Assembly: GCA_044352155.1 (NCBI GenBank)
Contig: JBILEK010000001.1
Span: 27,516 to 91,515 of the forward strand
DNA from: Bdellovibrionia bacterium
GTDB taxonomy: Bacteria > Bdellovibrionota > UBA1018 > JBILEK01
Direction of reading: 5' to 3'
DNA length: 64,000 nt
Part shown: in pieces, positions 14,342-48,360 of the stretch
Layout of the letters: each line of letters starts with the position of its first letter
Numbering within the stretch: position 1 is the stretch's first letter
Notes under the pieces: generated by a model
Database searches by the model: none
The model's input: the letters and a program-made list of their open reading frames with translations, nothing else
What the model was told of the DNA's origin: nothing
Position numbers and translations under genes: made by a program

Positions 14342-14417
14342 TGGCAGGGCAGGAGGGATTCGAACCCACAACCCGCGGATTTGGAATCCGCTGCTCTACC
14401 ATTCGAGCTACTGCCCT
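14342..14417 (-). tRNA. tRNA-Trp (anticodon CCA)
   Basis: Reverse complement AGGGCAGTAGCTCGAATGGTAGAGCAGCGGATTCCAAATCCGCGGGTTGTGGGTTCGAATCCCTCCTGCCCTGCCA. The anticodon loop is TTCCAAA. Confidence 0.85.
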
Positions 14418-14478
14418 ACCGGATTGAGGGCCCGGTGCTCCCCGATTTCTCGGAGGGCACCGGGTCATTCAATAAACG

Positions 14479-15669
14479 TTACTCAATAATCTCGGCAACA
14501 ACTCCTGCACCGACCGTGCGACCGCCTTCGCGGATCGCAAAGCGCAGCTCCTTCTCCATCGCGATCGGAGTGATGAGCTCGACTTCCATCTGGATGTTAT
14601 CGCCAGGCATCACCATCTCTACGTTCGCAGGCAGCGTAACCATGCCGGTCACGTCCGTCGTACGGAAGTAGAACTGAGGACGATAGCCCTTAAAGAACGG
14701 CGTGTGACGTCCGCCTTCTTCCTTCGTGAGAATATAGGCTGAACCCTTGAACTTCTTGTGCGGGAGAACAGAGCCCGGCTTACAAAGCACTTGGCCACGC
14801 TCGACTTCTTCCTTCTTCGTGCCGCGAAGAAGCGCTCCAACGTTGTCCCCTGCCTCACCGTAATCCAGAAGCTTGCGGAACATTTCAACGCCCGTGACCG
14901 TCGTCTTCGTCGTAGGACGAATGCCCACGATCTCGACTTCTTCACCGACCTTGATCACGCCACGCTCAATCCGGCCCGTGACGACCGTTCCACGACCCGA
15001 GATCGAGAACACGTCTTCCACCGGCATCAAGAACGGCTTGTCGGTCGCGCGCTGAGGTTGCGGAACATAAGCGTCCACTGCGTCCATGAGCGCGAGAATT
15101 GCCTTCTCGCCAAGCTCCCCTTGGTCGCCAGCCAAGCCCATCGTCGCAGAACCCTTCACGATCGGGATCTTATCTCCTGGGAATTGGTACTTCGTGAGAA
15201 GCTCACGCACTTCCATCTCAACGAGATCCAAAAGCTCCTTGTCGTCGACCATGTCGCACTTGTTTAAGAACACCACGATCGCAGGAACGCCCACTTGGCG
15301 AGCAAGCAAGATGTGCTCGCGCGTCTGTGGCATCGGACCGTCGGCTGCAGACACGACCAAGATCGCGCCGTCCATCTGTGCCGCACCCGTGATCATGTTC
15401 TTCACGTAGTCGGCGTGGCCCGGGCAATCAACGTGCGCGTAGTGGCGCTTGTCGGTCTCGTACTCCACGTGTGTGGTGTTGATCGTGATCCCGCGCTCTT
15501 TCTCTTCAGGTGCGTTGTCGATCTGATCGTATCCGCGCGCTTGCGCGAAACCCTTTTTCGCCAGCACCGTCGTGATTGCGGCCGTCAGCGTCGTCTTCCC
15601 GTGGTCAACGTGCCCGATCGTCCCAATGTTACAGTGCGGCTTTTTTCTTTCGAATTTCTCTTTCGACAT
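14479..15669 (-). CDS. tuf: elongation factor Tu
   Basis: 396 aa beginning [28 protein letters not shown]. Confidence 0.97.
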
Positions 15670-15712
15670 TTCGACCTTTCGACCTTTCCTTGCTTTGTTA
15701 CTCGACTAAAAC

Positions 15713-15787
<75 letters not shown>

Positions 15788-15793
15788 GAATTG

Positions 15794-15870
15794 TGGAGCG
15801 GGAAAAGGGACTCGAACCCTCAACCCTCGGCTTGGAAAGCCGATGCTCTAGCCAATTGAGCTATTCCCGC
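15794..15870 (-). tRNA. tRNA-Gly (anticodon TCC)
   Basis: Reverse complement GCGGGAATAGCTCAATTGGCTAGAGCATCGGCTTTCCAAGCCGAGGGTTGAGGGTTCGAGTCCCTTTTCCCGCTCCA. Confidence 0.85.
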
Positions 15871-15953
15871 CCGCAAAAAACTCTCTCTAAAAATTTCCGC
15901 TCATTACCGAGCGATCGTTCTCCTTCGAAGAACCACGCTCTTCAAGAGAAAAC

Positions 15954-16039
15954 TGGTGGTGGGAGAAGGATTCGAACCTTCGAAGGCATACGCCGTCAGA
16001 TTTACAGTCTGATCCCTTTGGCCACTTGGGTATCCCACC
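15954..16039 (-). tRNA. tRNA-Tyr (anticodon GTA, long variable arm)
   Basis: Reverse complement GGTGGGATACCCAAGTGGCCAAAGGGATCAGACTGTAAATCTGACGGCGTATGCCTTCGAAGGTTCGAATCCTTCTCCCACCACCA. Confidence 0.85.
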
Positions 16040-16092
16040 GACAAACTTTTTAACGACTTTCTCCTCCGGAGTTTTGCTGGAAACCAGCAAAA

Positions 16093-16168
16093 TGGAGCTG
16101 GCAATCGGACTTGAACCGATGACCTGCTGATTACAAATCAGCTGCTCTACCAACTGAGCTATGCCAGC
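16093..16168 (-). tRNA. tRNA-Thr (anticodon TGT)
   Basis: Reverse complement GCTGGCATAGCTCAGTTGGTAGAGCAGCTGATTTGTAATCAGCAGGTCATCGGTTCAAGTCCGATTGCCAGCTCCA. Confidence 0.85.
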
Positions 16169-21588: not shown

Positions 21589-23943
21589 GTGCGGCAGAAC
21601 AGGAGGGTGACGGCCGAAAACCTGCAAAAACCAGATCAAGACGCGCTCACGGCCGAGCGCAAAAAACGTCAACGCGAGCGCTGGGCGATCGTGGCACTGC
21701 TCGTCGTGTTTGTCGCGCTCACGGTCTTCGAGTTCCGCCTGACTCGTGTGTCTGAGAAGCTGCCCTTCGTTAACTCGATCTTTTTCTTTGGTCTCCTCAA
21801 CGTCAACCTGATCCTGCTGATTGCGCTTGTCTGGCTGATTTTTCGAAACATCGGGAAGCTTTTTCTCGAGCGCCGCTCTCGCGTCCTGGGCTCAAGGCTC
21901 AAGACCAAGCTCGTCGTCGCGTTTCTGGCCTTCTCCATCACGCCGACCCTGATCCTCTTTACCGTTTCTTCCCTGTACATTAACTCGAGCTTCGACAAGT
22001 GGTTCTCCATCAAAGTGCAGAACACGCTTCAAGCCTCACTTGAGATCACACGTACCTACTATAAAAACTCTGAACGTGTGGCGATGCACTTTGGCGAGCA
22101 CCTCGCCACACAGATTGGAAAGCGCGTCAGCAATGTTCCTAGTCGTTTTCGGCCTCCCGGATCAAATGAGCTCCCTCTCTGGCTTCCCAAGTACTTAGAA
22201 GATCAGCGAGCACTTCTCGCCCTGCACGCTGTCGAGTACTACGCCGATCCGCTGAGTGATCGACTCCTGACGACGCTTGAGACCTCAGAGAACGTCTCCT
22301 ATCCCAGGCTCTCACTTGATCTTTTGGATCGCGCTTTTTCGGGAGAAAATGTTTCAGTGATTCATCACATCGGATCCGGAGATCTCATCCGATGCTTGGT
22401 TCCAGTTTTTGTGGGAGGCCGAAAACCTGCATCCTCAAGCGATGAAGGACTCGCAGGAGTCGTCGTCATCAATAGCTATATTCCCGTGAGTCTCGTGAAT
22501 AAGGTCGACGAAGTCGCAAGCGTCTTTGATGACTATAAAGACACGAACCCTCTAAAGTATCCGCTAAAGACTGCATATTTTGTAATCCTCGTCATGATTA
22601 CGATGGTGATGATTGTGGTCGCGATCTGGATGGGCCTTTATCTCGCGAGAGAGCTCACGGTCCCGGTTGAGCGTCTAGTCCGAGGTGCTCAACTCGTGGG
22701 CTCTGGCAACCTTGATGTCACTATTGAGCGCTCGGGCGAGGATGAGATCGGCACTTTGATCGAGTCCTTCAATGCAATGACGAGGGATCTCAAACAAAAT
22801 CGGATGAAACTCACTGAGGCCGGCCATGATCTTGAGACTCGAAAACTCCAGCTCGAAGCCGTTCTTGCTAATATCGGCACAGGTGTTCTTGTCGTAAGTC
22901 CGCAGGGAGAAATCACCACTTTCAATCGTGCTGCAGCTGAGTTGCTTGAGATTGAGCCCGAGAGTGCACTCAAGCGTCCGTACACCAGCGTTCTGACGGA
23001 TGAGTCGCAAGCTCTGGTCGAAATCATTGCGCAAGCGACCGCGCAGACTGAAGATCTTAAACCAGAAGTGATTCAATGGACGTTTCGCTCAAGCGATGGC
23101 ACGACACGCTCGCTCGCGGGGATCGCAAGTTCGCTTCGCGACTCTCAGGCTTTTTGGGGTGTTGTCGTCGTGATTGATGACATGAGTCACCTTATGAAAG
23201 CGCAGCGCGAGGTTGCATGGCGTGAAGTCGCGCGACGGATTGCGCACGAAATCAAAAACCCCCTCACCCCCATCAAGCTCTCGGCCCAACGTCTTCAGCG
23301 TCAACTGGGGCATACCCCCGGAAAAGAAGGAGCTCTCTTACGCGAGTGTACCGAGACGATCGTCAAGCACACCGACGAGCTCAAGGAGATGGTCAACGAG
23401 TTCTCGAATTTTGCCCGATTCCCTGAAGCCTCGCCTGCACCCCACCAACTCAATGAAGTGATCCTCGAAGTGATGCGCTTGTTCTCTCAGGCTCATCCTG
23501 AGATTTGGTTTGAAACCAATCTGGAGCAAAAGCTACCGATCTTTGATTTCGATCGCGATCAAATCAAACGTGTACTGATTAACTTGCTCGACAACGCCAT
23601 CGCCGCGCTTGGAGATGCTCAAGGCCAAAAAAAGATCAAACTCGAGAGCCACTATAACGAACCGCTTCAAATCGCGGTGTTTACAGTGGAGGACAATGGG
23701 CCGGGCATGTCTGAAGAAATACGAGACCGCGTGTTTGAACCCTATTTCTCGACCAAAAAAGAAGGTACAGGACTCGGGCTTGCGATCACAAAACGCATCG
23801 TCAGCGATCACGATGGGTTTATTCGAGTGCACTCGGGACTCCAACAGGGCACGCAGTTTGTGATCGAGCTCCCGACTGCGCCAAAAAAACCCATTGAAGA
23901 CGTCGCGCTTAAGAAAGGACCCAAATGGGGCACTCCATCCTAA
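21589..23943 (+). CDS. ntrY: NtrY-like sensor histidine kinase (TM-HAMP-PAS-HisKA-HATPase)
   Basis: 784 aa. N-terminal TM helices are followed by a HAMP, then a PAS. The H-box is ARRIAHEIKNPLTPI. The N/G-boxes are LLDNAIAA and GTGLGLAI. Confidence 0.8.
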   Translation: MRQNRRVTAENLQKPDQDALTAERKKRQRERWAIVALLVVFVALTVFEFRLTRVSEKLPFVNSIFFFGLLNVNLILLIALVWLIFRNIGKLFLERRSRVLGSRLKTKLVVAFLAFSITPTLILFTVSSLYINSSFDKWFSIKVQNTLQASLEITRTYYKNSERVAMHFGEHLATQIGKRVSNVPSRFRPPGSNELPLWLPKYLEDQRALLALHAVEYYADPLSDRLLTTLETSENVSYPRLSLDLLDRAFSGENVSVIHHIGSGDLIRCLVPVFVGGRKPASSSDEGLAGVVVINSYIPVSLVNKVDEVASVFDDYKDTNPLKYPLKTAYFVILVMITMVMIVVAIWMGLYLARELTVPVERLVRGAQLVGSGNLDVTIERSGEDEIGTLIESFNAMTRDLKQNRMKLTEAGHDLETRKLQLEAVLANIGTGVLVVSPQGEITTFNRAAAELLEIEPESALKRPYTSVLTDESQALVEIIAQATAQTEDLKPEVIQWTFRSSDGTTRSLAGIASSLRDSQAFWGVVVVIDDMSHLMKAQREVAWREVARRIAHEIKNPLTPIKLSAQRLQRQLGHTPGKEGALLRECTETIVKHTDELKEMVNEFSNFARFPEASPAPHQLNEVILEVMRLFSQAHPEIWFETNLEQKLPIFDFDRDQIKRVLINLLDNAIAALGDAQGQKKIKLESHYNEPLQIAVFTVEDNGPGMSEEIRDRVFEPYFSTKKEGTGLGLAITKRIVSDHDGFIRVHSGLQQGTQFVIELPTAPKKPIEDVALKKGPKWGTPS

Positions 23944-25331
23944 TTGTAGACGATGAGACATCCATCCTCTCTGCACTTAAAGGTGCACTTGAGGACGAAG
24001 GCTATTTAGTCTCGACTTGCTCCTCGGGCGAGCAGGCACTCAGTTATCTCGAAAAGCAAACTCCTGACGCCATCCTGCTTGATATTTGGATGCCCGGTCT
24101 TGATGGACTTGAGACCCTAAGACGCATTAAGGATGCTTGGCCTCAGACTGTCGTAATCATGATGTCCGGTCATGGCACGATTGAAACTGCAGTGCGCTCC
24201 ACGAAACTCGGTGCCTACGACTTCGTCGAAAAACCCCTCTCTCTTGAAAAAATACTCGTTCTGCTTAAAAACGCGCAAACGACTCACGAGCTTGCGATCG
24301 AAAACTCCGCTCTCCGTAAGCAACTTTCGCGAACGAAATCTCTCATCGGCAAAAGCGCCGCCATCGAGCAGATTCGAGAGATGATTCGCAGAGTCGCACC
24401 TACGACGGGATCAGTTTTAATCACTGGAGAGAACGGCACCGGCAAGGAAGTTGTCGCACAAAATATTCATGCACTCTCACCGAGGTACAATAAGCCTTTT
24501 ATCGAAGTGAACTGCGCAGCAATCCCGGAAGAGCTCATCGAGAGCGAGCTTTTTGGGCATGAAAAAGGCTCATTCACGGGCGCAAACCAACAGCGCCGCG
24601 GAAAGTTTGATCTCGCACATGGTGGAACGCTTTTTCTGGACGAGATCGGCGATATGTCGCTGAAGACTCAAGCAAAGATTCTAAGGATCCTGCAGGATCA
24701 AAAATTTACTCGGGTGGGTGGATCTCAGTCTTTCATCGTCGATGTACGGATCATCGCAGCGACAAACAAAAATCTAAAAAGCGAGATTCAAAAGGGCTCG
24801 TTTCGCGAGGACCTTTACCACCGACTCAATGTCATCCCATTTCAAATCTCACCACTCAGGGAGCGCAAGGAGGACATCCCACTGCTGGTTGAGCATTTTT
24901 TACAGACTTTTTGCGACTCCCATGGTCGACCTGTTTTGAAATTTTCTGGAGAGGCGATCCGAGTGATTTCGAGCTACTCCTGGCCTGGAAACGTTCGCGA
25001 ACTCAAAAATCTTATTGAGCGCATCGTGATCCTCGTCGGTGAGTCAGAGGCCAAAAAGCCCATCACGGCAGCGCTCATCCTCCAGCACCTCAATGAGGAG
25101 CCTCAAAGTCCAACCCTCAGCGCGAATGACGATAAGACCCTCTCCGGCCTCGCCCTCGGCTCAGCAGCACGCAACCTGAAAGATGCACGACATGAGTTTG
25201 AGCGTGAGTTTATTCTCAAAACGCTCAAAGAGAACGACTGGAACATCTCAAAAACTGCAACGATCCTCGGTGTCGAGCGTAGTCATCTCCATCGCAAGAT
25301 TAAGTCCTACGGAATCGACCCCGAGTCCTGA
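23925..25331 (+). CDS. ntrX: sigma-54-dependent response regulator (NtrX/NtrC family)
   Basis: Receiver domain (ILIVDDE ... D), AAA+ Walker A GENGTGKE, GSFTGA sigma-54 contact motif and C-terminal Fis-type HTH. Overlaps ntrY by 19 bp. Confidence 0.8.
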   Translation: MGHSILIVDDETSILSALKGALEDEGYLVSTCSSGEQALSYLEKQTPDAILLDIWMPGLDGLETLRRIKDAWPQTVVIMMSGHGTIETAVRSTKLGAYDFVEKPLSLEKILVLLKNAQTTHELAIENSALRKQLSRTKSLIGKSAAIEQIREMIRRVAPTTGSVLITGENGTGKEVVAQNIHALSPRYNKPFIEVNCAAIPEELIESELFGHEKGSFTGANQQRRGKFDLAHGGTLFLDEIGDMSLKTQAKILRILQDQKFTRVGGSQSFIVDVRIIAATNKNLKSEIQKGSFREDLYHRLNVIPFQISPLRERKEDIPLLVEHFLQTFCDSHGRPVLKFSGEAIRVISSYSWPGNVRELKNLIERIVILVGESEAKKPITAALILQHLNEEPQSPTLSANDDKTLSGLALGSAARNLKDARHEFEREFILKTLKENDWNISKTATILGVERSHLHRKIKSYGIDPES

Positions 25332-26701: not shown

Positions 26702-27475
26702 TTAAAACTCAAGCTCAACCCAAAGCGCAGCATGATCCGAGAGGCGTCGCCAACGTCCACGCGTGTAGCGTGCACAGAGCCGCGGAGTTAACCCACGGAC
26801 ATAAATACGATCAAGCGGAAGTAAGGGCATCCAAATCGGAAACGTCCGCGCAGGCTCTCCTTGCAAAACTTCGATCGCCTCTTCGAGTCCGAGACGCTCT
26901 CTGAGTTCAGATGAGATTTGCTGATTCCAATCGTTAAAGTCGCCGGCAACGACTAGCGGATGATCACGCGGAATGTGTGCTTCAATCTGATTACAGAGTC
27001 GCTCCACTTGACGCTCACGCCCCGACTGAAAAAGATCTAAGTGTAAACAGATTAAATCAATTCTGCGCCCCATCTCAGGGATCTCGATGACTCCGTGAAG
27101 GAGCCCGCGTCTCTGAAGCTGAGAATTGGAGACATCGATGTTCTCCCACGAAATAAACGGAAACTTACTTAAAATCGCGTTGCCGTGATCACCTCCGGTT
27201 GTGACTGCGTTTTTTCCGTAAGCATAGTGATCCCAAATCGTATCAGCCAAATACTCAAACTGAGTCCCACGCACTTCTTGAAGAAACACGATCTCCACCT
27301 CGGCCGAGCGAATCGCATCGCGCACCCCTTCAAGCGACAGGGTTCGACCAGATGCGCCAAAACCTTTATGGATGTTGTAAGTCAGTAAGCGTAACCGAGG
27401 CATCTCAGACAGAATTACCGTATTGTCGCAACTTGCTCCAGCCTCTCCCGCACCCACTGCGGCAGACCGCAACAA
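26702..27475 (-). CDS. endonuclease/exonuclease/phosphatase (EEP) family protein
   Basis: LLTYNIHKG ... IVFLQEV ... and C-terminal SDH, typical EEP catalytic motifs. It lies 42 bp upstream of rmuC on the same strand. Confidence 0.75.
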   Translation of the reverse strand: MLRSAAVGAGEAGASCDNTVILSEMPRLRLLTYNIHKGFGASGRTLSLEGVRDAIRSAEVEIVFLQEVRGTQFEYLADTIWDHYAYGKNAVTTGGDHGNAILSKFPFISWENIDVSNSQLQRRGLLHGVIEIPEMGRRIDLICLHLDLFQSGRERQVERLCNQIEAHIPRDHPLVVAGDFNDWNQQISSELRERLGLEEAIEVLQGEPARTFPIWMPLLPLDRIYVRGLTPRLCARYTRGRWRRLSDHAALWVELEF

Positions 27476-27512
27476 CTCTGCGATTAGAACTCTCTATAAA
27501 GCATCCGCCTGT

Positions 27513-27528
27513 TGGCATTGCAGTTGCT
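27513..27528 (+). promoter_or_regulatory. sigma-54 (-24/-12) promoter: TGGCATtgcagTTGCT
   Basis: GG and GC are separated by exactly 10 nt and match the TGGCAC-N5-TTGCW consensus. It lies about 85 nt upstream of the small secreted-peptide gene and upstream of the HK/sigma-54 RR pair. Confidence 0.5.
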
Positions 27529-27610
27529 GTCTTACATCAATAACAATACGACTCGCCACGACACGTTTTAGCGTCAAAGCGCTGTCGAAACACAACATAA
27601 GGAAATCAAA

Positions 27611-27841
27611 ATGAACAAGCTCATTCCTGTGATCGCAGTTCTTTTCGCAACCTCCGCTTTCGCAGCCGACCACGGCGGCGCTAATCACGGAAACGCTGCA
27701 GCAGAAGCTCCTAAGGCTGAAGCGCATGCCGCTCCTGCAAAGAAAGTAGCGAAGAAAGCTAAAAAAGCTGCTGCAAAGAAAGCTGAAGCTCCTGCTGCTG
27801 AAAAGGCTGCTGAAGCTCCTGCAACCGGCCACAGCAACTAA
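27611..27841 (+). CDS. small secreted His/Ala/Lys-rich low-complexity protein (76 aa)
   Basis: Signal peptide MNKLIPVIAVLFATSAFA. The mature part is ADHGGANHGNAAAEAPKAEAHAAPAKKVAKKAKK... with four His. The antisense Cys-rich ORF 27494-27832 is judged spurious. Confidence 0.55.
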   Translation: MNKLIPVIAVLFATSAFAADHGGANHGNAAAEAPKAEAHAAPAKKVAKKAKKAAAKKAEAPAAEKAAEAPATGHSN

Positions 27842-27919
27842 AAGATTTCGCTTAAAAAACGAATTCGTGAACCGGGAGACCTTGGCAACAAGGTGCTCCC
27901 GGTTCTATTTTGAGTTGCT

Positions 27920-29398
27920 GTGAACAGGCGAGATTGGGTTAAAAAGTTTCGGACGCTCGACCTTCAAGTCAAAGTCACGCTGACTCTTGTTGCAGTGATT
28001 TTGCCGACGTTCCTGATCATCACCTTAATTGTAGATCGCCTGACCCAGCCGTATCTTGAGGAAGAAGTCCGCCAAATCGGGATCGCAAGCGCAAAGACTT
28101 TCGCGCTTGAAATTGAACGCGAAAAAACTTTCGCACGTCCCAACGCGCAAGAAATCCTCGAAAAGCAAATCACTGAGCTTCTCTCGATCCAACCCAACAT
28201 CTTACGGTTTGACGTCTACAAGAAAACTCAAGACGGCAAAGGCGAGCTCATCGCTTCAAGTCATGATTTCACATCGTATACCCCGACTATTGCTCTTGAT
28301 GATCGTGTCGTCAGCCGTCCCCTGAGCGAGGAGAGTGTGTCGGTATGGGAGCTCTCGGTACCGATCACGCAGAAGTCAAGCGCAGGGAGCAAGAGTGCGA
28401 GCTCAAAACTCCTTGGCAACGTCCGACTGCAGATTTCTCTTCAGCTGGTCGGAGAGATACTTGCTGGTTTTCAGCATTTTTCACTTGCTGCAGGGTTCAT
28501 GAGCGTTGTGATTTTGTTTGCGCTTTTGAGCTTTTTTTTGCGCAGAACGATTCAAAACGATCGTCTCTTACGCCGCGCACGCTCACAAAACACTAAACTT
28601 TACGAACAGCTTCACGATGCCCAGCGCCAGGTCATGAACAACGAAAAACTCGCTGTCATGGGACAACTTACCGCAAACTTTGCGCATGAAATCGGGACTC
28701 CCTTAAACGCGATTGGCGGACATCTTCAACTTTTGCGTGACGAACTGAGTAGTCCAAAACTCCCTCTCCCCTCCGCGCGCGAGCGCATCGAGATCCTCAA
28801 CGGACAAGTCAGTAAAATCGAGCACATCGTGCGCGAACTTCTTCAAACCACGGCTAAGCCTCAGTCTCAGACCCAGCTCGTGGATCTGAATCGAGTGGCC
28901 GAAAAAACACTCTCCCTCGTCCACCCGCGCGCCGACGCTCTTGGCGTTGAGATCAATACACACTTTGATCGCTCGTTAGGCCCAGTACGGCTTGTTCCAA
29001 TCGATCTCGAGCAAATTCTGCTTAATCTTGTCAACAACTCGCTTGATGCTCTTCAAGAAAAATGGAGTCGCAGACCTGGAGAGCGACTGCTGCTCGAGCT
29101 CGACACGCGGATCCAGGAGCTTGAGGATTCCCACTGGGCTGAAATCAGTATCCGCGATAGCGGCATGGGGATCTCCAGCGAAGACCTGCAAAGCGTCGTG
29201 AAGCCGTTTTTTACAACCAAAGCTCCGGGTCAAGGAACGGGGCTTGGACTGACGATTTGTCAGCAACTGGTCAAAAAGTACGACGGCGTGCTAGATCTGT
29301 CGTCGAAAGAGGGTTCATGGACCGAAGTCAAGATCCGGTTTCCGTTTCAGCCTCAGCGCAAGCTCGACTCAACCTCCTTGTCGTCGACGACGACTTAG
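27920..29398 (+). CDS. membrane sensor histidine kinase
   Basis: N-terminal TM, a periplasmic-type region and a second TM, followed by H-box FAHEIGTPLNAIGGHLQLL and the HATPase N/G-boxes (LVNNSLDA, GTGLGLTI). Confidence 0.85.
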   Translation: MNRRDWVKKFRTLDLQVKVTLTLVAVILPTFLIITLIVDRLTQPYLEEEVRQIGIASAKTFALEIEREKTFARPNAQEILEKQITELLSIQPNILRFDVYKKTQDGKGELIASSHDFTSYTPTIALDDRVVSRPLSEESVSVWELSVPITQKSSAGSKSASSKLLGNVRLQISLQLVGEILAGFQHFSLAAGFMSVVILFALLSFFLRRTIQNDRLLRRARSQNTKLYEQLHDAQRQVMNNEKLAVMGQLTANFAHEIGTPLNAIGGHLQLLRDELSSPKLPLPSARERIEILNGQVSKIEHIVRELLQTTAKPQSQTQLVDLNRVAEKTLSLVHPRADALGVEINTHFDRSLGPVRLVPIDLEQILLNLVNNSLDALQEKWSRRPGERLLLELDTRIQELEDSHWAEISIRDSGMGISSEDLQSVVKPFFTTKAPGQGTGLGLTICQQLVKKYDGVLDLSSKEGSWTEVKIRFPFQPQRKLDSTSLSSTTT

Positions 29399-30735
29399 TC
29401 ACGCGTGAACTGCTGCGCGAAGTTTTCGCGCGTGAAGGTTTCCCTGTCACCCTAGCATCGTGCGCCGAGGAGGCGCTTAAGCTCCTAGAGTCTCAGCAGT
29501 TTCCCATCGTGCTCTCTGACATCCGTATGCTTGAGCTGGACGGGATGGCGCTTCTGAGCGAAATCAAACGTCGATCTCCGACGGCTGCAGTGATCCTGAT
29601 GACCGGGTTTGGAACGATGGAAACCGCAATTCAAGCGATTCAGAAGGGTGCGTTCGACTACATCTCAAAACCCTTTAAAATCGACGAGATCAAAGCTTTA
29701 CTCGCACGTGCCGAACAACACGCCAGAACACAGATCCCTGTGCGACAAGCGCCCCCCCATAAGCCCATTCAAACTCGCGCACTCACTGGGAAATCTCCCA
29801 AGATCGTCGAGGTCTATAAAACTCTTGCGCGTGCAACACTTTCTGACAGTAACGTCTTGATCATCGGTGAAAGCGGCACGGGCAAAGAGCTCGTCGCTCG
29901 CGCCATTCATGAAAATAGCTCTCGCTCAAAGCGCCCCTTTATCGCGATCAACTGTGGTGCGCTGGCTGAGGGAGTACTTGAAAGCGAGCTTTTTGGGCAC
30001 GTCAAAGGGGCCTTCACCGGCGCGCTCTCGGATAAGCCAGGAATTTTTCAAGAAGCAAACGGAGGCACTCTTTTCCTCGACGAGATCGGCGACGTTTCTC
30101 AAGCTCTTCAGGTGAAACTTTTGCGCGCTCTCCAAGAGGGAGAAGCCCGCGCCGTGGGCTCAAGCGCGACCGCTCGTTTTGATGTCCGCGTTCTTGCAGC
30201 GACACACAGAGATCTGAGCGGCTGGGTCCGCGAAGGAAAGTTTCGCGAAGATCTTTACTATCGACTCAAGGTGGTTTCGATTGAGATCCCTCCACTTCGC
30301 GAGCGCATGGAGGATCTGCCCGAATTAGTGGATCTGTTTATCTCTCGTTTTTCAGAGCGCTCGGGAAAGAGCATCTCGCACGCAAGCCCAGAGGCGATGA
30401 TGTGCCTTCAAAGCTATTCTTGGCCCGGAAACGTGCGTGAGCTTGAGCATGCGATTGAGCATGCAATCGCAATGAGCCGCACTCACATCTTGTTTCCTGA
30501 GGACTTCTCTTTAGAAATTCAGCGCGCAGCGAAGCTCGCCATCGCTGAAGTCGATACGACTGCTACAACTGCTTCACCCGCATCTCTTGAAGATCTCGAG
30601 CGCACACATATCCTTAAAATTTTGCAGCAAACGGGTTACAATAAATCTAGAACAGCTGAGCTACTGGGGATTGATCGCGCAACTCTCTACCGCAAAGCGC
30701 AGCGCTATGGCATCCCCCTAGGTGAGCGCAGTTAA
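29317..30735 (+). CDS. sigma-54-dependent response regulator (NtrC family)
   Basis: Receiver (LLVVDDD), AAA+ (GESGTGKE, GAFTGA, ESELFGH) and C-terminal HTH. The ORF opens at 29257. Start chosen at ATG 29317 (MDRSQ). It overlaps the kinase's 3' tail in another frame. Confidence 0.8.
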   Translation: MDRSQDPVSVSASAQARLNLLVVDDDLVTRELLREVFAREGFPVTLASCAEEALKLLESQQFPIVLSDIRMLELDGMALLSEIKRRSPTAAVILMTGFGTMETAIQAIQKGAFDYISKPFKIDEIKALLARAEQHARTQIPVRQAPPHKPIQTRALTGKSPKIVEVYKTLARATLSDSNVLIIGESGTGKELVARAIHENSSRSKRPFIAINCGALAEGVLESELFGHVKGAFTGALSDKPGIFQEANGGTLFLDEIGDVSQALQVKLLRALQEGEARAVGSSATARFDVRVLAATHRDLSGWVREGKFREDLYYRLKVVSIEIPPLRERMEDLPELVDLFISRFSERSGKSISHASPEAMMCLQSYSWPGNVRELEHAIEHAIAMSRTHILFPEDFSLEIQRAAKLAIAEVDTTATTASPASLEDLERTHILKILQQTGYNKSRTAELLGIDRATLYRKAQRYGIPLGERS

Positions 30736-48282: not shown

Positions 48283-48360
48283 TGGCGGACCCGACAGGAT
48301 TCGAACCTATGACCTCCACATCCGTAGTGTGGCGCTCTAATCCAACTGAGCTACGGGTCC
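48283..48360 (-). tRNA. tRNA-Arg (anticodon ACG)
   Basis: Reverse complement GGACCCGTAGCTCAGTTGGATTAGAGCGCCACACTACGGATGTGGAGGTCATAGGTTCGAATCCTGTCGGGTCCGCCA. Confidence 0.8.

What the first reader, a model, noticed from the sequence alone, without database searches (positions are those of the whole stretch)
27507..30735. ZraPSR-like module: sigma-54 promoter, small His/Ala/Lys-rich periplasmic peptide, sensor kinase, sigma-54 activator
A near-consensus -24/-12 element (TGGCATtgcagTTGCT, spacing exact) precedes a 76-aa secreted low-complexity peptide. Its mature part is about 50% Ala/Lys and carries four His (ADHGGANHG ... H ... H). A periplasmic-sensing histidine kinase and a GAFTGA-containing NtrC-type regulator follow. 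This is the same logic as zraP-zraSR, but the peptide is unrelated to ZraP and looks like an intrinsically disordered metal- or envelope-binding polycation.
Basis: partly seen in the sequence, partly recalled or inferred. Interest (0 to 1): 0.55.

Follow-up and report, generated by a model that had tools for sequence, protein, structure and literature searches.

The report
Sigma-54 cassette making a secreted polylysine peptide
A sensor kinase and sigma-54 activator sit beside the gene they most probably switch on, a tiny exported, disordered, lysine-rich peptide; this three-gene unit with its promoter, activator sites and terminator recurs across the predatory phylum Bdellovibrionota and I found no description of it.

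Summary
TGGCATtgcagTTGCT (27513-27528) is the only sigma-54 consensus match in the 64 kb. It precedes a 76-aa ORF with a Sec signal peptide and a mature part that is 59% Ala+Lys with four His. A strong intrinsic terminator, a two-TM histidine kinase and a GAFTGA NtrC-type response regulator follow.

In 82 related loci, all from Bdellovibrionota by record title or synteny, the kinase-regulator pair is always kept and the flanking genes are not. A signal-peptide plus Lys-block ORF lies just upstream of the kinase in 56 of the 76 loci that hold enough upstream DNA. A strict -24/-12 element occurs upstream in 28 of 54 peptide loci (0.04 expected). A 17-bp palindrome, TGTYGC-N5-GCRACA, lies at about -69 and -90 (roughly 680-fold enriched). 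A terminator follows the peptide gene in 45 of 51 loci.

So this is a self-contained sigma-54 two-component cassette whose local output is an exported disordered polycation. It works like zraP-zraSR but is not a member: the peptide is not ZraP-like, the sensor domain is unrelated, the activator sites differ and the genes are co-directional. The metal-binding idea is weak. The N-terminal His motif occurs in 5 of 54 peptides, although C-terminal His is frequent. The peptide's function remains inferred.

The parts
27424..27440 (+). Distal activator-binding site (UAS 1), TGTCGCAACTTGCTCCA. It has 2 mismatches to TGTYGC-N5-GCRACA and starts 89 nt upstream of TGGCA.
   Evidence: The same position is occupied in L001 and L002. 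In L002 the two sites are part of a 20-nt inverted repeat. Across the family the motif is about 680-fold enriched upstream of the promoters.
27458..27474 (+). Proximal activator-binding site (UAS 2), TGCGGCAGACCGCAACA. It has 2 mismatches and starts 55 nt upstream of TGGCA.
   Evidence: It matches 15 of 17 positions of the perfect L068 site TGTTGCAGACCGCAACA.
27513..27528 (+). Sigma-54 promoter TGGCAT-tgcag-TTGCT (GG at -24, GC at -12). The transcription start is inferred near 27538-27540.
   Evidence: It is the only match in the window. It is conserved in L001 and L002 and across the family.
27549..27587 (+). Conserved hairpin in the roughly 72-nt 5'UTR of the peptide mRNA. Its role is unknown.
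   Evidence: 13 pairs kept in all three close relatives, with no covariation available. The UTR is more conserved than the mature-peptide coding region.
27611..27841 (+). Gene for the 76-aa pre-peptide. The Sec signal peptide is residues 1-18 (27611-27664). The mature part is 58 aa, made of an acidic or neutral N-part (ADHGGANHG...), a Lys block (PAKKVAKKAKKAAAKKA, net +8) and an Ala/Pro/Glu tail ending in GHSN.
   Evidence: Positional homologues occur in 56 of 76 loci. In the signal-peptide codons, 6 of 7 substitutions against L001 and L002 are synonymous. Profile positions 1-28 match the signal peptides of known periplasmic proteins.
27869..27912 (+). Intrinsic terminator: a 16-bp G+C-rich hairpin followed by UAUUUUG. 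It lies 8 nt upstream of the kinase start codon.
   Evidence: -34.2 kcal/mol, z = -5.1. It is conserved in L001 and L002. An equivalent terminator is present in 45 of 51 loci.
27920..29398 (+). Sensor histidine kinase, 492 aa, GTG start. Order of parts: TM1, a PDC/Cache-like periplasmic domain (about residues 42-182, net charge -3), TM2, then DHp (H-box FAHEIGTP) and the catalytic domain. No HAMP domain is seen in the model.
29317..30735 (+). NtrC-family response regulator and sigma-54 activator, 472 aa from ATG 29317. It has REC, AAA+ (GESGTGKE, GAFTGA) and HTH_8 domains. The ORF overlaps the kinase ORF by 82 nt.
   Evidence: A homologue follows the kinase in 79 of 79 loci with enough DNA.

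Best explanation
This is a self-contained, sigma-54-dependent two-component cassette that is conserved across Bdellovibrionota.

Proposed mechanism, with each step marked as shown or inferred:

1. The kinase senses an extracytoplasmic cue. It has two TM helices and an acidic PDC/Cache-like periplasmic domain. The cue is unknown.
2. The kinase phosphorylates the adjacent NtrC-family activator (inferred from the domain architecture).
3. The activator binds two phased 17-bp palindromes, TGTYGC-N5-GCRACA. In the window they start 55 and 89 nt upstream of the -24 element. This step is inferred from family-wide motif conservation.
4. The bound activator drives open-complex formation at the TGGCAT-N5-TTGCT promoter.
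5. The transcript is essentially monocistronic. It encodes a 76-aa pre-peptide and ends at a strong intrinsic terminator. Read-through would feed the kinase-regulator genes and give positive autoregulation (inferred).
6. The peptide is exported by Sec and cleaved after AFA (inferred from sequence). The product is a disordered block polyampholyte of about 58 aa. An acidic or neutral spacer keeps the early mature region compatible with export. A central Lys block follows (net +8 here, median +10 in the family), then an Ala/Pro/Glu tail that often ends in His.

The peptide's sequence drifts quickly while its charge pattern is kept. It therefore most likely acts through bulk electrostatics in the periplasm. 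It could bind anionic envelope polymers, or feed back on the acidic sensor domain as ZraP, CpxP and MgrB do for their kinases. The regulatory wiring is well supported. The peptide's molecular role is a low-confidence inference.
For: - Anatomy of the window.
- Cassette conservation: 80 GTDB loci plus 2 metagenome loci. The GTDB records are titled Bdellovibrionota or one of its classes, apart from a few MAGs labelled only as Proteobacteria, Pseudomonadota or Deltaproteobacteria. A regulator homologue follows the kinase in 79 of 79 loci. The window's flanking genes (RmuC, EEP phosphatase, acyltransferase) are shared only with the two closest relatives.
- Peptide: a signal-peptide plus Lys-block ORF lies 60-200 nt upstream of the kinase in 56 of 76 loci, at kinase identities from 35% to 85%.
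- Family architecture (n = 54): median length 77 aa; Ala 28%, Lys 21%; net charge -2 for the N-part, +10 for the block and -1.5 for the tail.
- Promoter: strict in 28 of 54 loci against 0.04 expected, relaxed in 40 of 54 against 0.16 expected, lying 26-131 nt from the ATG.
- UAS: with at most 1 mismatch, 28 hits in 8.2 kb upstream against 2 in 396 kb of the rest of the loci. Sites are phased at about -69 and -90. At least one site with at most 2 mismatches is present in 36 of 40 loci.
- Terminator: present in 45 of 51 loci.
- Specificity in the window: this is the only sigma-54 promoter with UAS-like sites in the 64 kb.
- Coding evidence: a Shine-Dalgarno sequence, mostly synonymous changes in the signal-peptide codons, and profile matches to the signal peptides of periplasmic proteins.
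- Sensor: AF2 pLDDT 90.5. The best global structural match is the WalK extracellular PAS/PDC domain (TM 0.65). Median net charge is -4, with 12 conserved acidic columns.
Against: - There is no expression, export or binding data; everything is comparative.
- The two UAS sites in the window carry 2 mismatches each, and at that stringency the window as a whole shows no excess (10 hits found, 10.9 expected). Their credibility rests on position and on the orthologous sites.
- About 20 loci with a related kinase-regulator pair have no peptide ORF of the short type and no sigma-54 promoter nearby. The pairing is therefore not universal, or those pairs are paralogues.
- Sensor net charge does not correlate with peptide charge (rho -0.09 and -0.18, p 0.58 and 0.26). 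Sensor charge also does not differ between loci with and without the peptide. The feedback idea therefore has no support beyond analogy.
- Compositionally similar small secreted proteins exist in other phyla with no kinase or activator beside them.
- A second activator gene lies 2 kb upstream in the window, so cross-regulation cannot be excluded there.
Confidence: 0.6

Rival explanations
1. This is the first reader's reading: a functional analogue of ZraP. The peptide would be a periplasmic metal-binding (Zn, Cu or Ni) modulator or chaperone, the kinase would sense metal, and the peptide would buffer metal and repress the kinase.
For: The mature N-terminus ADHGGANHG resembles the mature N-terminus of E. 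coli ZraP, HGGHGMW (10 of 15 identities including the end of the signal peptide, E 0.018). If cleaved after AFA, the window peptide starts X-X-His, the pattern of the ATCUN Cu(II)/Ni(II) site (own knowledge). His makes up 4.2% of mature residues and 48 of 54 peptides have at least one His. The last residue is His in 19 of 54, and His lies within the last three residues in 28 of 54. ZraP also ends in ...GHW. The regulator is 45% identical to ZraR.
Against: His at mature position 3 occurs in only 5 of 54 peptides, and the closest relative L001 has GDDH. Six of the 54 peptides have no His at all, for example L003 and L005. The peptide has no LTXXQ or CpxP-like family and no Pfam hit in any consistent way. 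The sensor domain has no Cys and no conserved His and shows no similarity to the ZraS sensor. The NCBIfam ZraS and ZraR cut-offs are not met. The UAS differs from the E. coli zraP-zraS inverted repeat.
Confidence: 0.15
2. The peptide is an exported effector aimed outwards. It would be a polylysine-like agent that permeabilises or binds the anionic surface, DNA or envelope of prey, and the kinase would switch it on during encounter or invasion.
For: The phylum consists largely of predators of Gram-negative bacteria (own knowledge). Polycations such as polylysine and protamine bind LPS and permeabilise outer membranes (own knowledge). The strong promoter and terminator suggest burst expression of a small product. 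The fast-evolving sequence with a conserved charge pattern is typical of such effectors.
Against: The cassette contains only a Sec signal peptide and no outer-membrane secretion component, so the default location is the producer's own periplasm. The Lys block has no hydrophobic face, which is unlike pore-forming antimicrobial peptides (sequence). Many of the loci come from uncultured MAGs whose lifestyle is unknown.
Confidence: 0.1
3. The cassette is a peptide-pheromone (quorum-sensing-like) circuit. The exported peptide or a fragment of it would be the ligand of the adjacent kinase, giving autoinduction as in comCDE or agr.
For: The gene order peptide-kinase-regulator with a promoter under the regulator's control is the classic autoinducing-peptide layout (own knowledge). 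The peptide sequence diverges fast between lineages. The sensor domain is acidic and the peptide is basic.
Against: There is no double-glycine leader, no ABC exporter and no AgrB-type processing gene. The kinase is a two-TM PDC type, not a polytopic HPK10 type. Sensor and peptide charges do not co-vary. A polycation of about 56 aa is unlikely to cross the outer membrane freely (inference).
Confidence: 0.07
4. The small ORF is not translated. The sigma-54 promoter would then make a non-coding RNA, as GlrR does for glmY, or would simply be the leader of the kinase-regulator operon.
For: The 5'UTR and terminator are more conserved than the mature-peptide coding sequence among close relatives. The exact peptide sequences are absent from a collection of 15 billion proteins.
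Against: An ORF with an ATG start, a signal peptide and a Lys block is kept at this position in 56 loci despite near-complete sequence turnover. A Shine-Dalgarno sequence is present. In the signal-peptide codons, 6 of 7 substitutions are synonymous. The early mature region is consistently acidic, as expected for Sec export of a basic cargo.
Confidence: 0.03

Closest known systems
ZraP-ZraS-ZraR envelope-stress system of E. coli and Salmonella
   Same: Both have a sigma-54 promoter driving a small Sec-exported periplasmic protein next to a periplasm-sensing kinase and an NtrC-family activator (review PMC4987338). The regulator here is 45% identical to ZraR. The ZraS cytoplasmic domain is among the best structural matches of the kinase core. 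Both small proteins have HGG-type His motifs at the mature N-terminus and His near the C-terminus.
   Different: ZraP is a folded protein of about 115 aa in the CpxP/LTXXQ class. The peptide here is a low-complexity polycation of about 58 aa with no family. The zraP gene is divergent from zraSR, while this peptide gene is co-directional and closed by a terminator. The sensor domains are unrelated. The UAS is different. The NCBIfam ZraS and ZraR cut-offs are not met, and AtoS and AtoC score higher.
GlrK (QseE) / GlrR (QseF) with the accessory lipoprotein QseG
   Same: Both combine a kinase, a small envelope accessory protein and a sigma-54 activator. The GlrR site TGTC-N10-GACA (PMC4987338) resembles TGTCGC-N5-GCGACA, which reads as TGTC-N9-GACA.
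   Different: The half-site spacing differs by 1 bp. GlrR scores 380 bits against a cut-off of 763. QseG is a lipoprotein, and GlrR's known targets are the small RNAs glmY and glmZ, not the accessory protein gene.
Small-protein feedback modulators of sensor kinases (CpxP-CpxA, MgrB-PhoQ)
   Same: In each case a small envelope protein is made under the control of the two-component system that it may modulate. PhoQ also uses an acidic PDC-type sensor that binds cations and cationic peptides (own knowledge).
   Different: Those systems use sigma-70 promoters and OmpR-family regulators. MgrB is a membrane peptide and CpxP is a folded helical protein. No evidence obtained here shows that the peptide touches the sensor.
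Histone H1-like AKKA-repeat and AAEAP-repeat low-complexity segments (AlgP, TolA domain II, Neisseria H.8/Lip)
   Same: The composition is the same: Ala/Lys repeats and AEAP units. One family member is even annotated 'histone' by NCBI (P0124).
   Different: Those are cytoplasmic DNA-binding tails, or linker domains within larger proteins or lipoproteins. This is a free-standing exported peptide with its own sigma-54 promoter. The resemblance is compositional and recalled from memory, not homology.

Membership tests
ZraPSR system | The small protein belongs to the ZraP/CpxP (LTXXQ, Metal_resist) family. | tested here: not met
   The window peptide has no Pfam or NCBIfam hit, and no consistent family is found among 30 members. 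BLASTP against E. coli ZraP aligns only 15 residues at the signal-peptide end and HGG..HG.
ZraPSR system | The kinase is a ZraS orthologue. | tested here: not met
   NCBIfam ZraS gives 132 bits against a cut-off of 479, and AtoS scores higher at 165. BLASTP shows 27% identity confined to residues 194-481, with no match in the sensor domain.
ZraPSR system | The regulator is a ZraR orthologue. | tested here: not met
   NCBIfam ZraR gives 419 bits against a cut-off of 760. AtoC (466) and NtrC (428) score higher. Full-length identity to ZraR is 45%, the level expected of a family paralogue.
ZraPSR system | Divergent zraP and zraSR genes share one ZraR-bound enhancer. | tested here: not met
   Here all three genes are on the + strand, with a terminator after the first. 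The E. coli intergenic region carries a different inverted repeat, GAGTAAAAATGACTCG...CGAGTCATTTTTACTC.
ZraPSR system | Induction by zinc or envelope stress, and zinc binding by the small protein. | not testable with these tools
   This needs promoter fusions and metal-binding assays.
Sigma-54-dependent promoter with enhancer | A GG at -24 and a GC at -12 with exact spacing (TGGCAC-N5-TTGCW). | tested here: met
   27513-27528 is a unique match in the window. It is conserved in 28 of 54 loci (strict) and 40 of 54 (relaxed), against 0.04 and 0.16 expected.
Sigma-54-dependent promoter with enhancer | Activator-binding sites roughly 80-150 bp upstream of the transcription start. | tested here: met
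   TGTYGC-N5-GCRACA sites are phased at about -69 and -90 from TGGCA, with 28 hits in 8.2 kb against 2 in 396 kb. The window sites are 27424-27440 and 27458-27474.
Sigma-54-dependent promoter with enhancer | Transcription depends on RpoN and on the activator. | not testable with these tools
   No rpoN gene lies in the window. The presence of sigma-54 in the genome is inferred from two activator genes in the window.
NtrC-family response regulator (bacterial enhancer-binding protein) | A REC domain, an AAA+ sigma-54 interaction domain with GAFTGA, and an HTH_8 domain. | tested here: met
   Pfam gives Response_reg 2e-28, Sigma54_activat 5e-68 and HTH_8 2e-13. GAFTGA is at 30007.
PDC/Cache-like extracytoplasmic sensor kinases | A long N-terminal helix followed by a five- or six-stranded antiparallel sheet, between two TM helices. 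| tested here: met
   The AF2 sensor model has pLDDT 90.5 and pTM 0.84. The best global match is the WalK extracellular domain, 4ywz and 7dud (TM 0.65, E 5e-3), with other kinase and chemoreceptor Cache domains below it. No Pfam domain is detected by sequence.
Sec-exported protein | An N-terminal signal peptide with a basic n-region, a hydrophobic h-region and an A-x-A cleavage site. | tested here: met
   The window sequence is MNK-LIPVIAVLFATS-AFA|A, and the pattern is invariant across 30 aligned members. Profile positions 1-28 match the signal peptides of beta-lactamase, cytochrome c554, ecotin and TpbA. No dedicated signal-peptide predictor was available.
Autoinducing-peptide three-component systems (ComCDE or Agr type) | A dedicated leader with an exporter or processing gene, and a polytopic HPK10-type receptor kinase. 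| tested here: not met
   The peptide has a Sec signal peptide. No exporter is conserved beside the cassette. The kinase is a two-TM PDC type.
ATCUN (amino-terminal Cu/Ni) motif peptides | A free N-terminus with His at position 3. | tested here: inconclusive
   The window peptide would start A-D-H if cleaved after AFA (a prediction only). His at position 3 occurs in 5 of 54 family members, and the close relative L001 has G-D-D-H.

The most novel reading that the evidence does not exclude
Bdellovibrionota carry a previously unrecognised envelope response. A dedicated sigma-54 two-component system would have as its sole local output a Sec-exported, intrinsically disordered 'periplasmic polylysine'. 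This peptide would act by electrostatics on anionic envelope or prey polymers, or as a self-made cationic ligand of its own acidic PDC sensor. That would be a new class of small-protein effector or modulator, one that gene callers largely miss.
Probability: 0.3. Interest if true: 0.7.

Novelty: new variant of a known kind. Interest (0 to 1): 0.5.

Why it matters
The cassette gives a complete and testable regulatory unit in a phylum where sigma-54 regulation is almost unstudied. It supplies the sensor, the activator, the DNA motif the activator should bind, the promoter, the terminator and the output gene. In the held library, three full-text searches aimed at Bdellovibrio returned no paper describing it.

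The output is an unannotated family of tiny exported polycations with no Pfam or NCBIfam model. Members are named 'hypothetical' or, wrongly, 'histone'. The six family sequences looked up, including the window's own, are absent from a collection of 15 billion proteins.

If the peptide modulates its own kinase or conditions the envelope, it would add a disordered, charge-pattern-based member to the short list of small-protein partners of sensor kinases. Bdellovibrio species are genetically tractable, and a member of the cassette is present in Bdellovibrio sp. ZAP7 (L078), so the experiments are feasible.

Tried and rejected
- **Direct homology search with the peptide.** It found only two close relatives. 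The family became visible only by position, after fetching loci through the kinase.
- **Charge co-variation between sensor and peptide.** No correlation was found, and sensor charge and acidic columns do not differ between loci with and without the peptide. The 'peptide binds the acidic sensor' idea stays unsupported.
- **Fold search with the full-length kinase model.** It returned only kinase cores. A second model of the sensor alone was needed.
- **Other targets of the regulator.** No further sigma-54 promoter with UAS-like sites was found in the 64-kb window or in the peptide-less loci. The single hit in L008 lies inside a coding sequence and has no UAS.
- **Look-alike peptides outside the phylum.** Contigs from Cupriavidus, Dissulfurispiraceae and others were checked for an adjacent kinase or activator. 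None had one, so these were rejected as members of the cassette.
- **Rfam scan.** It found nothing in the region. The recurrent 'ANSGEVGR...' pseudo-ORFs upstream of the peptide-less loci are not a known RNA. They probably reflect a conserved protein gene there; a class-II aminoacyl-tRNA-synthetase-like C-terminus was seen in L017.
- **PEP-CTERM/PrsK-PrsR system.** The regulator model scores 375 bits against a cut-off of 503, and the peptide has no PEP-CTERM anchor. Rejected.
- **Exact-sequence cluster look-up of six peptides.** None was found.
- **Literature searches for the cassette in Bdellovibrio.** Nothing relevant was found.

Full report
**1. Observation**

- TGGCATtgcagTTGCT lies at 27513-27528 on the + strand. 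It is the only match to TGGCAY-N5-TTGCW in the 64-kb window. About 0.1 matches are expected by chance, and 10 of 100 shuffles reach one.
- An AGGA Shine-Dalgarno sequence follows 82 nt downstream, and then a 76-aa ORF (27611-27841).
- The product starts with a textbook Sec signal peptide, MNK-LIPVIAVLFATS-AFA|ADH.
- The predicted mature 58 residues hold 24 Ala, 10 Lys, 4 His and 6 Asp+Glu, so Ala+Lys make up 59%.
- Pfam finds HisKA and HATPase_c in the next ORF (27920-29398). It finds Response_reg, Sigma54_activat, AAA_lid_14 and HTH_8 in the one after (29317-30735). GAFTGA is at 30007.

It is a 16-bp hairpin at 27869-27905 followed by UAUUUUG (-34.2 kcal/mol, z = -5.1), only 8 nt before the kinase's GTG start. 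The kinase and regulator ORFs also overlap by 82 nt.

**2. Relatives**

A direct search with the peptide found only two homologues, P0001 and P0002. Both lie on metagenome contigs syntenic with the window. Aligning the three intergenic regions shows several things:

- The -24/-12 element is conserved (TGGCAYYGCAGTTGCTGTCTTA), as are the 5'UTR and the terminator.
- The surrounding DNA and the mature-peptide coding sequence have diverged.
- In the signal-peptide codons, 6 of 7 substitutions are synonymous.

The kinase has hundreds of relatives at about 50% identity. Those that carry a source name are labelled Bdellovibrionota, Oligoflexia, Bdellovibrionia or Bdellovibrionales. A scan of one genome per GTDB species with a kinase alignment returned 80 loci at 35-54% identity. 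Their records are titled as Bdellovibrionota or one of its classes, apart from a few MAGs labelled only as Proteobacteria, Pseudomonadota or Deltaproteobacteria.

**3. The conserved unit**

A regulator homologue follows the kinase in all 79 loci with enough DNA. The window's other neighbours (RmuC, an EEP-family phosphatase, an acyltransferase) are shared only with the two closest relatives.

A small + strand ORF with a signal peptide and a block rich in Lys/Arg lies 60-200 nt upstream of the kinase in 56 of the 76 loci with enough upstream DNA. Three more loci have it further upstream or in a long form.

These ORFs are barely alignable beyond the signal peptide, but they share one architecture. 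For n = 54:

- Median length is 77 aa, with a mature part of about 56 aa.
- Composition is Ala 28%, Lys 21%, Pro 8%, Glu 8%, Thr 8% and His 4.2%.
- The N-part is neutral or acidic (net -2) and nearly always begins with Asp or Glu at position +2.
- The Lys block is 12-30 residues long (net +10), often of the form KKAKKxKK or KKHKK.
- The Ala/Pro/Glu tail has net charge -1.5.

The acidic early mature region fits what is known about Sec export, where basic residues just after the cleavage site block translocation (own knowledge). A profile of the family matches the signal peptides of known periplasmic proteins in the PDB over positions 1-28. It matches no Pfam family consistently.

**4. Cis-regulatory grammar**

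- **Promoter.** A strict sigma-54 element lies within 200 nt upstream of the peptide ORF in 28 of 54 loci, against 0.04 expected from the rest of the same loci. A relaxed one (for example TGGCATGCTTCATGCC, or TGGCAT-N5-TTGAA) occurs in 40 of 54, against 0.16 expected.
- **Activator sites.** Lining the loci up on the promoter reveals a 17-bp palindrome, TGTYGC-N5-GCRACA, usually in two copies. With at most one mismatch there are 28 copies in 8.2 kb of promoter-upstream DNA and 2 in the remaining 396 kb, an enrichment of about 680-fold. Copies start at about -69 and -90 relative to TGGCA, two helical turns apart. Of 40 loci, 36 have at least one site with at most 2 mismatches.
- **Window sites.** They are TGTCGCAACTTGCTCCA (27424-27440) and TGCGGCAGACCGCAACA (27458-27474). 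Each has two mismatches. At that stringency they are not significant within the window alone. They are orthologous to the sites in L001 and L002, and in L002 they form a 20-nt inverted repeat.
- **IHF-like site.** A subgroup of loci carries TAAsNNNNTGAAA at a fixed -30 from TGGCA. The window does not.
- **Terminator.** A hairpin of -10 kcal/mol or stronger with a T-run separates the peptide gene from the kinase gene in 45 of 51 loci.
- **Uniqueness.** No other sigma-54 promoter with such sites exists in the window.

**5. The proteins**

By NCBIfam the regulator is closest to AtoC (466 bits, cut-off 714), then NtrC (428/559), ZraR (419/760) and GlrR (380/763). The kinase is closest to AtoS (165/646) and ZraS (132/479), and only over the catalytic core. 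Neither reaches any equivalog cut-off. They are NtrC-family proteins with no named orthologue.

AlphaFold models place a domain of about 140 residues between two TM helices. Modelled alone it has pLDDT 90.5 and pTM 0.84. Its best global matches are the extracellular PAS/PDC domain of WalK (TM 0.65) and other Cache-type sensor domains.

The domain is acidic, with a median net charge of -4 across 33 homologues. It has 12 conserved Asp/Glu columns, no Cys and no conserved His.

**6. How it most likely works**

- **Shown by sequence and comparison:** a kinase-regulator pair is inseparably linked to a small ORF carrying a signal peptide. That ORF has its own sigma-54 promoter, phased palindromic enhancer sites and a terminator.
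- **Inferred from what is established for NtrC-family systems:** the kinase phosphorylates the regulator. The regulator binds the palindromes and remodels the sigma-54 closed complex. The peptide mRNA is made in bursts and mostly terminates, and read-through supplies the kinase-regulator genes.
- **Inferred with low confidence:** the exported peptide acts through its charge pattern. Its sequence turns over quickly while the block-polyampholyte design is kept, and the Lys block has no hydrophobic face. It could act on anionic envelope polymers or on the acidic sensor as feedback.

I tested the feedback idea by asking whether sensor charge tracks peptide charge, or differs between loci with and without the peptide. 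It does neither, so the idea rests on analogy alone.

**7. Comparison with ZraPSR**

I fetched the E. coli K-12 locus.

- ZraP is a 141-aa precursor whose mature form starts HGGHGMW and ends GHW.
- BLASTP against the window peptide aligns only TSAFA(AD)HGG(AN)HG: 10 of 15 identities, E 0.018.
- ZraS aligns at 27% identity over the cytoplasmic half only.
- ZraR aligns at 45% identity over its full length.
- In E. coli zraP is divergent from zraSR, and the intergenic region holds a different inverted repeat, GAGTAAAAATGACTCG/CGAGTCATTTTTACTC.
- The review PMC4987338 describes ZraP as a zinc-binding periplasmic chaperone expressed from divergent sigma-54 promoters under ZraR. It gives TGTC-N10-GACA for GlrR. 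The motif here reads as TGTC-N9-GACA.

The cassette therefore works like ZraPSR in outline but fails every membership criterion I could test.

**8. The metal idea**

For:

- His is about twofold enriched in the mature peptides.
- 19 of 54 peptides end in His, and 28 of 54 have His within the last three residues.
- The window's predicted A-D-H start fits the ATCUN pattern.

Against:

- His at position 3 occurs in only 5 of 54 peptides, and the closest relative has GDDH.
- Some members have no His at all.
- The sensor shows no metal-ligand signature.

I keep this as a minority rival, relevant at most to the window's sub-lineage.

**9. Other rivals**

- **Outward-directed polycationic effector.** This is attractive for a predatory phylum, but no outer-membrane export component is linked to the cassette.
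- **Autoinducing peptide.** The gene layout fits, but the leader, the exporter and the kinase type do not.
- **Non-coding transcript.** This is contradicted by the conserved ORF design.

Compositionally similar small secreted proteins occur in other phyla, but never beside a kinase or activator in the six contexts I checked.

**10. Limits**

- About 20 related kinase-regulator loci lack the short-type peptide ORF and any nearby sigma-54 promoter. Most of them have a different upstream gene and lower regulator identity (41-49%), so they look like a paralogous branch. A few (for example L012, L014, L032, L048, L060) carry long forms instead.
- A sub-family with a conserved ...NWQNLD motif abuts the kinase without a terminator or a detectable promoter.
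- Signal-peptide cleavage is predicted by rule, not by a dedicated tool.
- The loci are phylogenetically related, so the counts are not independent events.
- There is no experimental evidence of any kind.

**11. Novelty and verdict**

The held literature has nothing on this cassette. The peptides have no family model. They are annotated 'hypothetical' or 'histone', and the six sequences looked up, including the window's own, are absent from the protein collection.

The kind of system is known: a sigma-54 two-component system with a small periplasmic partner. This version differs in its output protein, its enhancer motif, its gene layout and its phylum-wide spread. I rate it a new variant of a known kind. 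Interest is moderate (0.5). Confidence is high in the regulatory wiring and low in the peptide's function.

Noticed in passing
window 43766-43852 (-): An SAH (S-adenosyl-homocysteine) riboswitch aptamer, 57 bits against a gathering score of 37.
   Followed up: no
window 14345-16168 (-); also 2288-2359 and 48286-48360: A cluster of five tRNA genes within 1.8 kb, plus two isolated ones.
   Followed up: no
window 21589-25331 (+): A second sigma-54 two-component pair 2 kb upstream. It consists of a 784-aa NtrY-like kinase (NtrY_N, HAMP, PAS in the L001 and L002 orthologues) and an NtrX-like activator with GSFTGA. The activator's 3' end overlaps the convergent RmuC gene by 25 nt.
   Followed up: partly
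L083 5001-5222 (Cupriavidus basilensis, P0157); L087 1506-1817 (P0142): Compositionally similar small secreted Ala/Pro plus KKAKK proteins in Betaproteobacteria. In both contigs they sit between a pseudouridine synthase gene and a DUF192 gene, with no kinase or activator nearby. They may form a separate uncharacterised family of periplasmic polycations.
   Followed up: partly
L032 4498-4983; L045 4671-4964; L047 4629-4976; L057 4635-4976: Longer variants of the peptide (97-161 aa) with a conserved GMN(Q/E)AP.N.NWQN(L/M)D motif before the basic block. In L045, L047 and L057 the basic block is C-terminal and ends in NHH, RHR or RHH; L032 carries an acidic tail after it. They abut the kinase gene (gap 9-19 nt) with no terminator and no detectable sigma-54 promoter.
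   Followed up: partly
L021 4376-4594 and 4649-4867: Two tandem peptide genes upstream of one kinase. The sigma-54 promoter lies in front of the first.
   Followed up: no
About 17 of 40 related loci, 30 nt upstream of TGGCA (e.g. L021, L023, L003); absent from the window: An IHF-like motif, TAAsNNNNTGAAA, at a fixed position between the enhancer sites and the -24 element.
   Followed up: partly
window 27549-27587 (+): A hairpin in the peptide mRNA 5'UTR is conserved in L001 and L002, and the UTR is more conserved than the mature-peptide coding sequence. No covariation can be seen with three sequences.
   Followed up: partly
window 27611-27838 and five locus peptides: The exact peptide sequences are absent from a collection of 15 billion proteins, although the adjacent kinase is present at 100% identity (P0003). 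Gene callers appear to miss or mis-start these ORFs.
   Followed up: yes
Family-wide (54 peptides): The very last residue is His in 19 of 54 peptides, and His lies within the last three residues in 28 of 54. This is far above the 4% His content and is unexplained.
   Followed up: partly
L017, L018, L036, L039, L046, L052, L054, L058, L059, L061 upstream of the kinase: The peptide-less loci share a conserved upstream gene. L017 shows a class-II aminoacyl-tRNA-synthetase or EpmA-like C-terminus. Its out-of-frame translations ('ANSGEVGR...IPGQGTRSGVRVSRKS') recur, and there is no Rfam match.
   Followed up: partly
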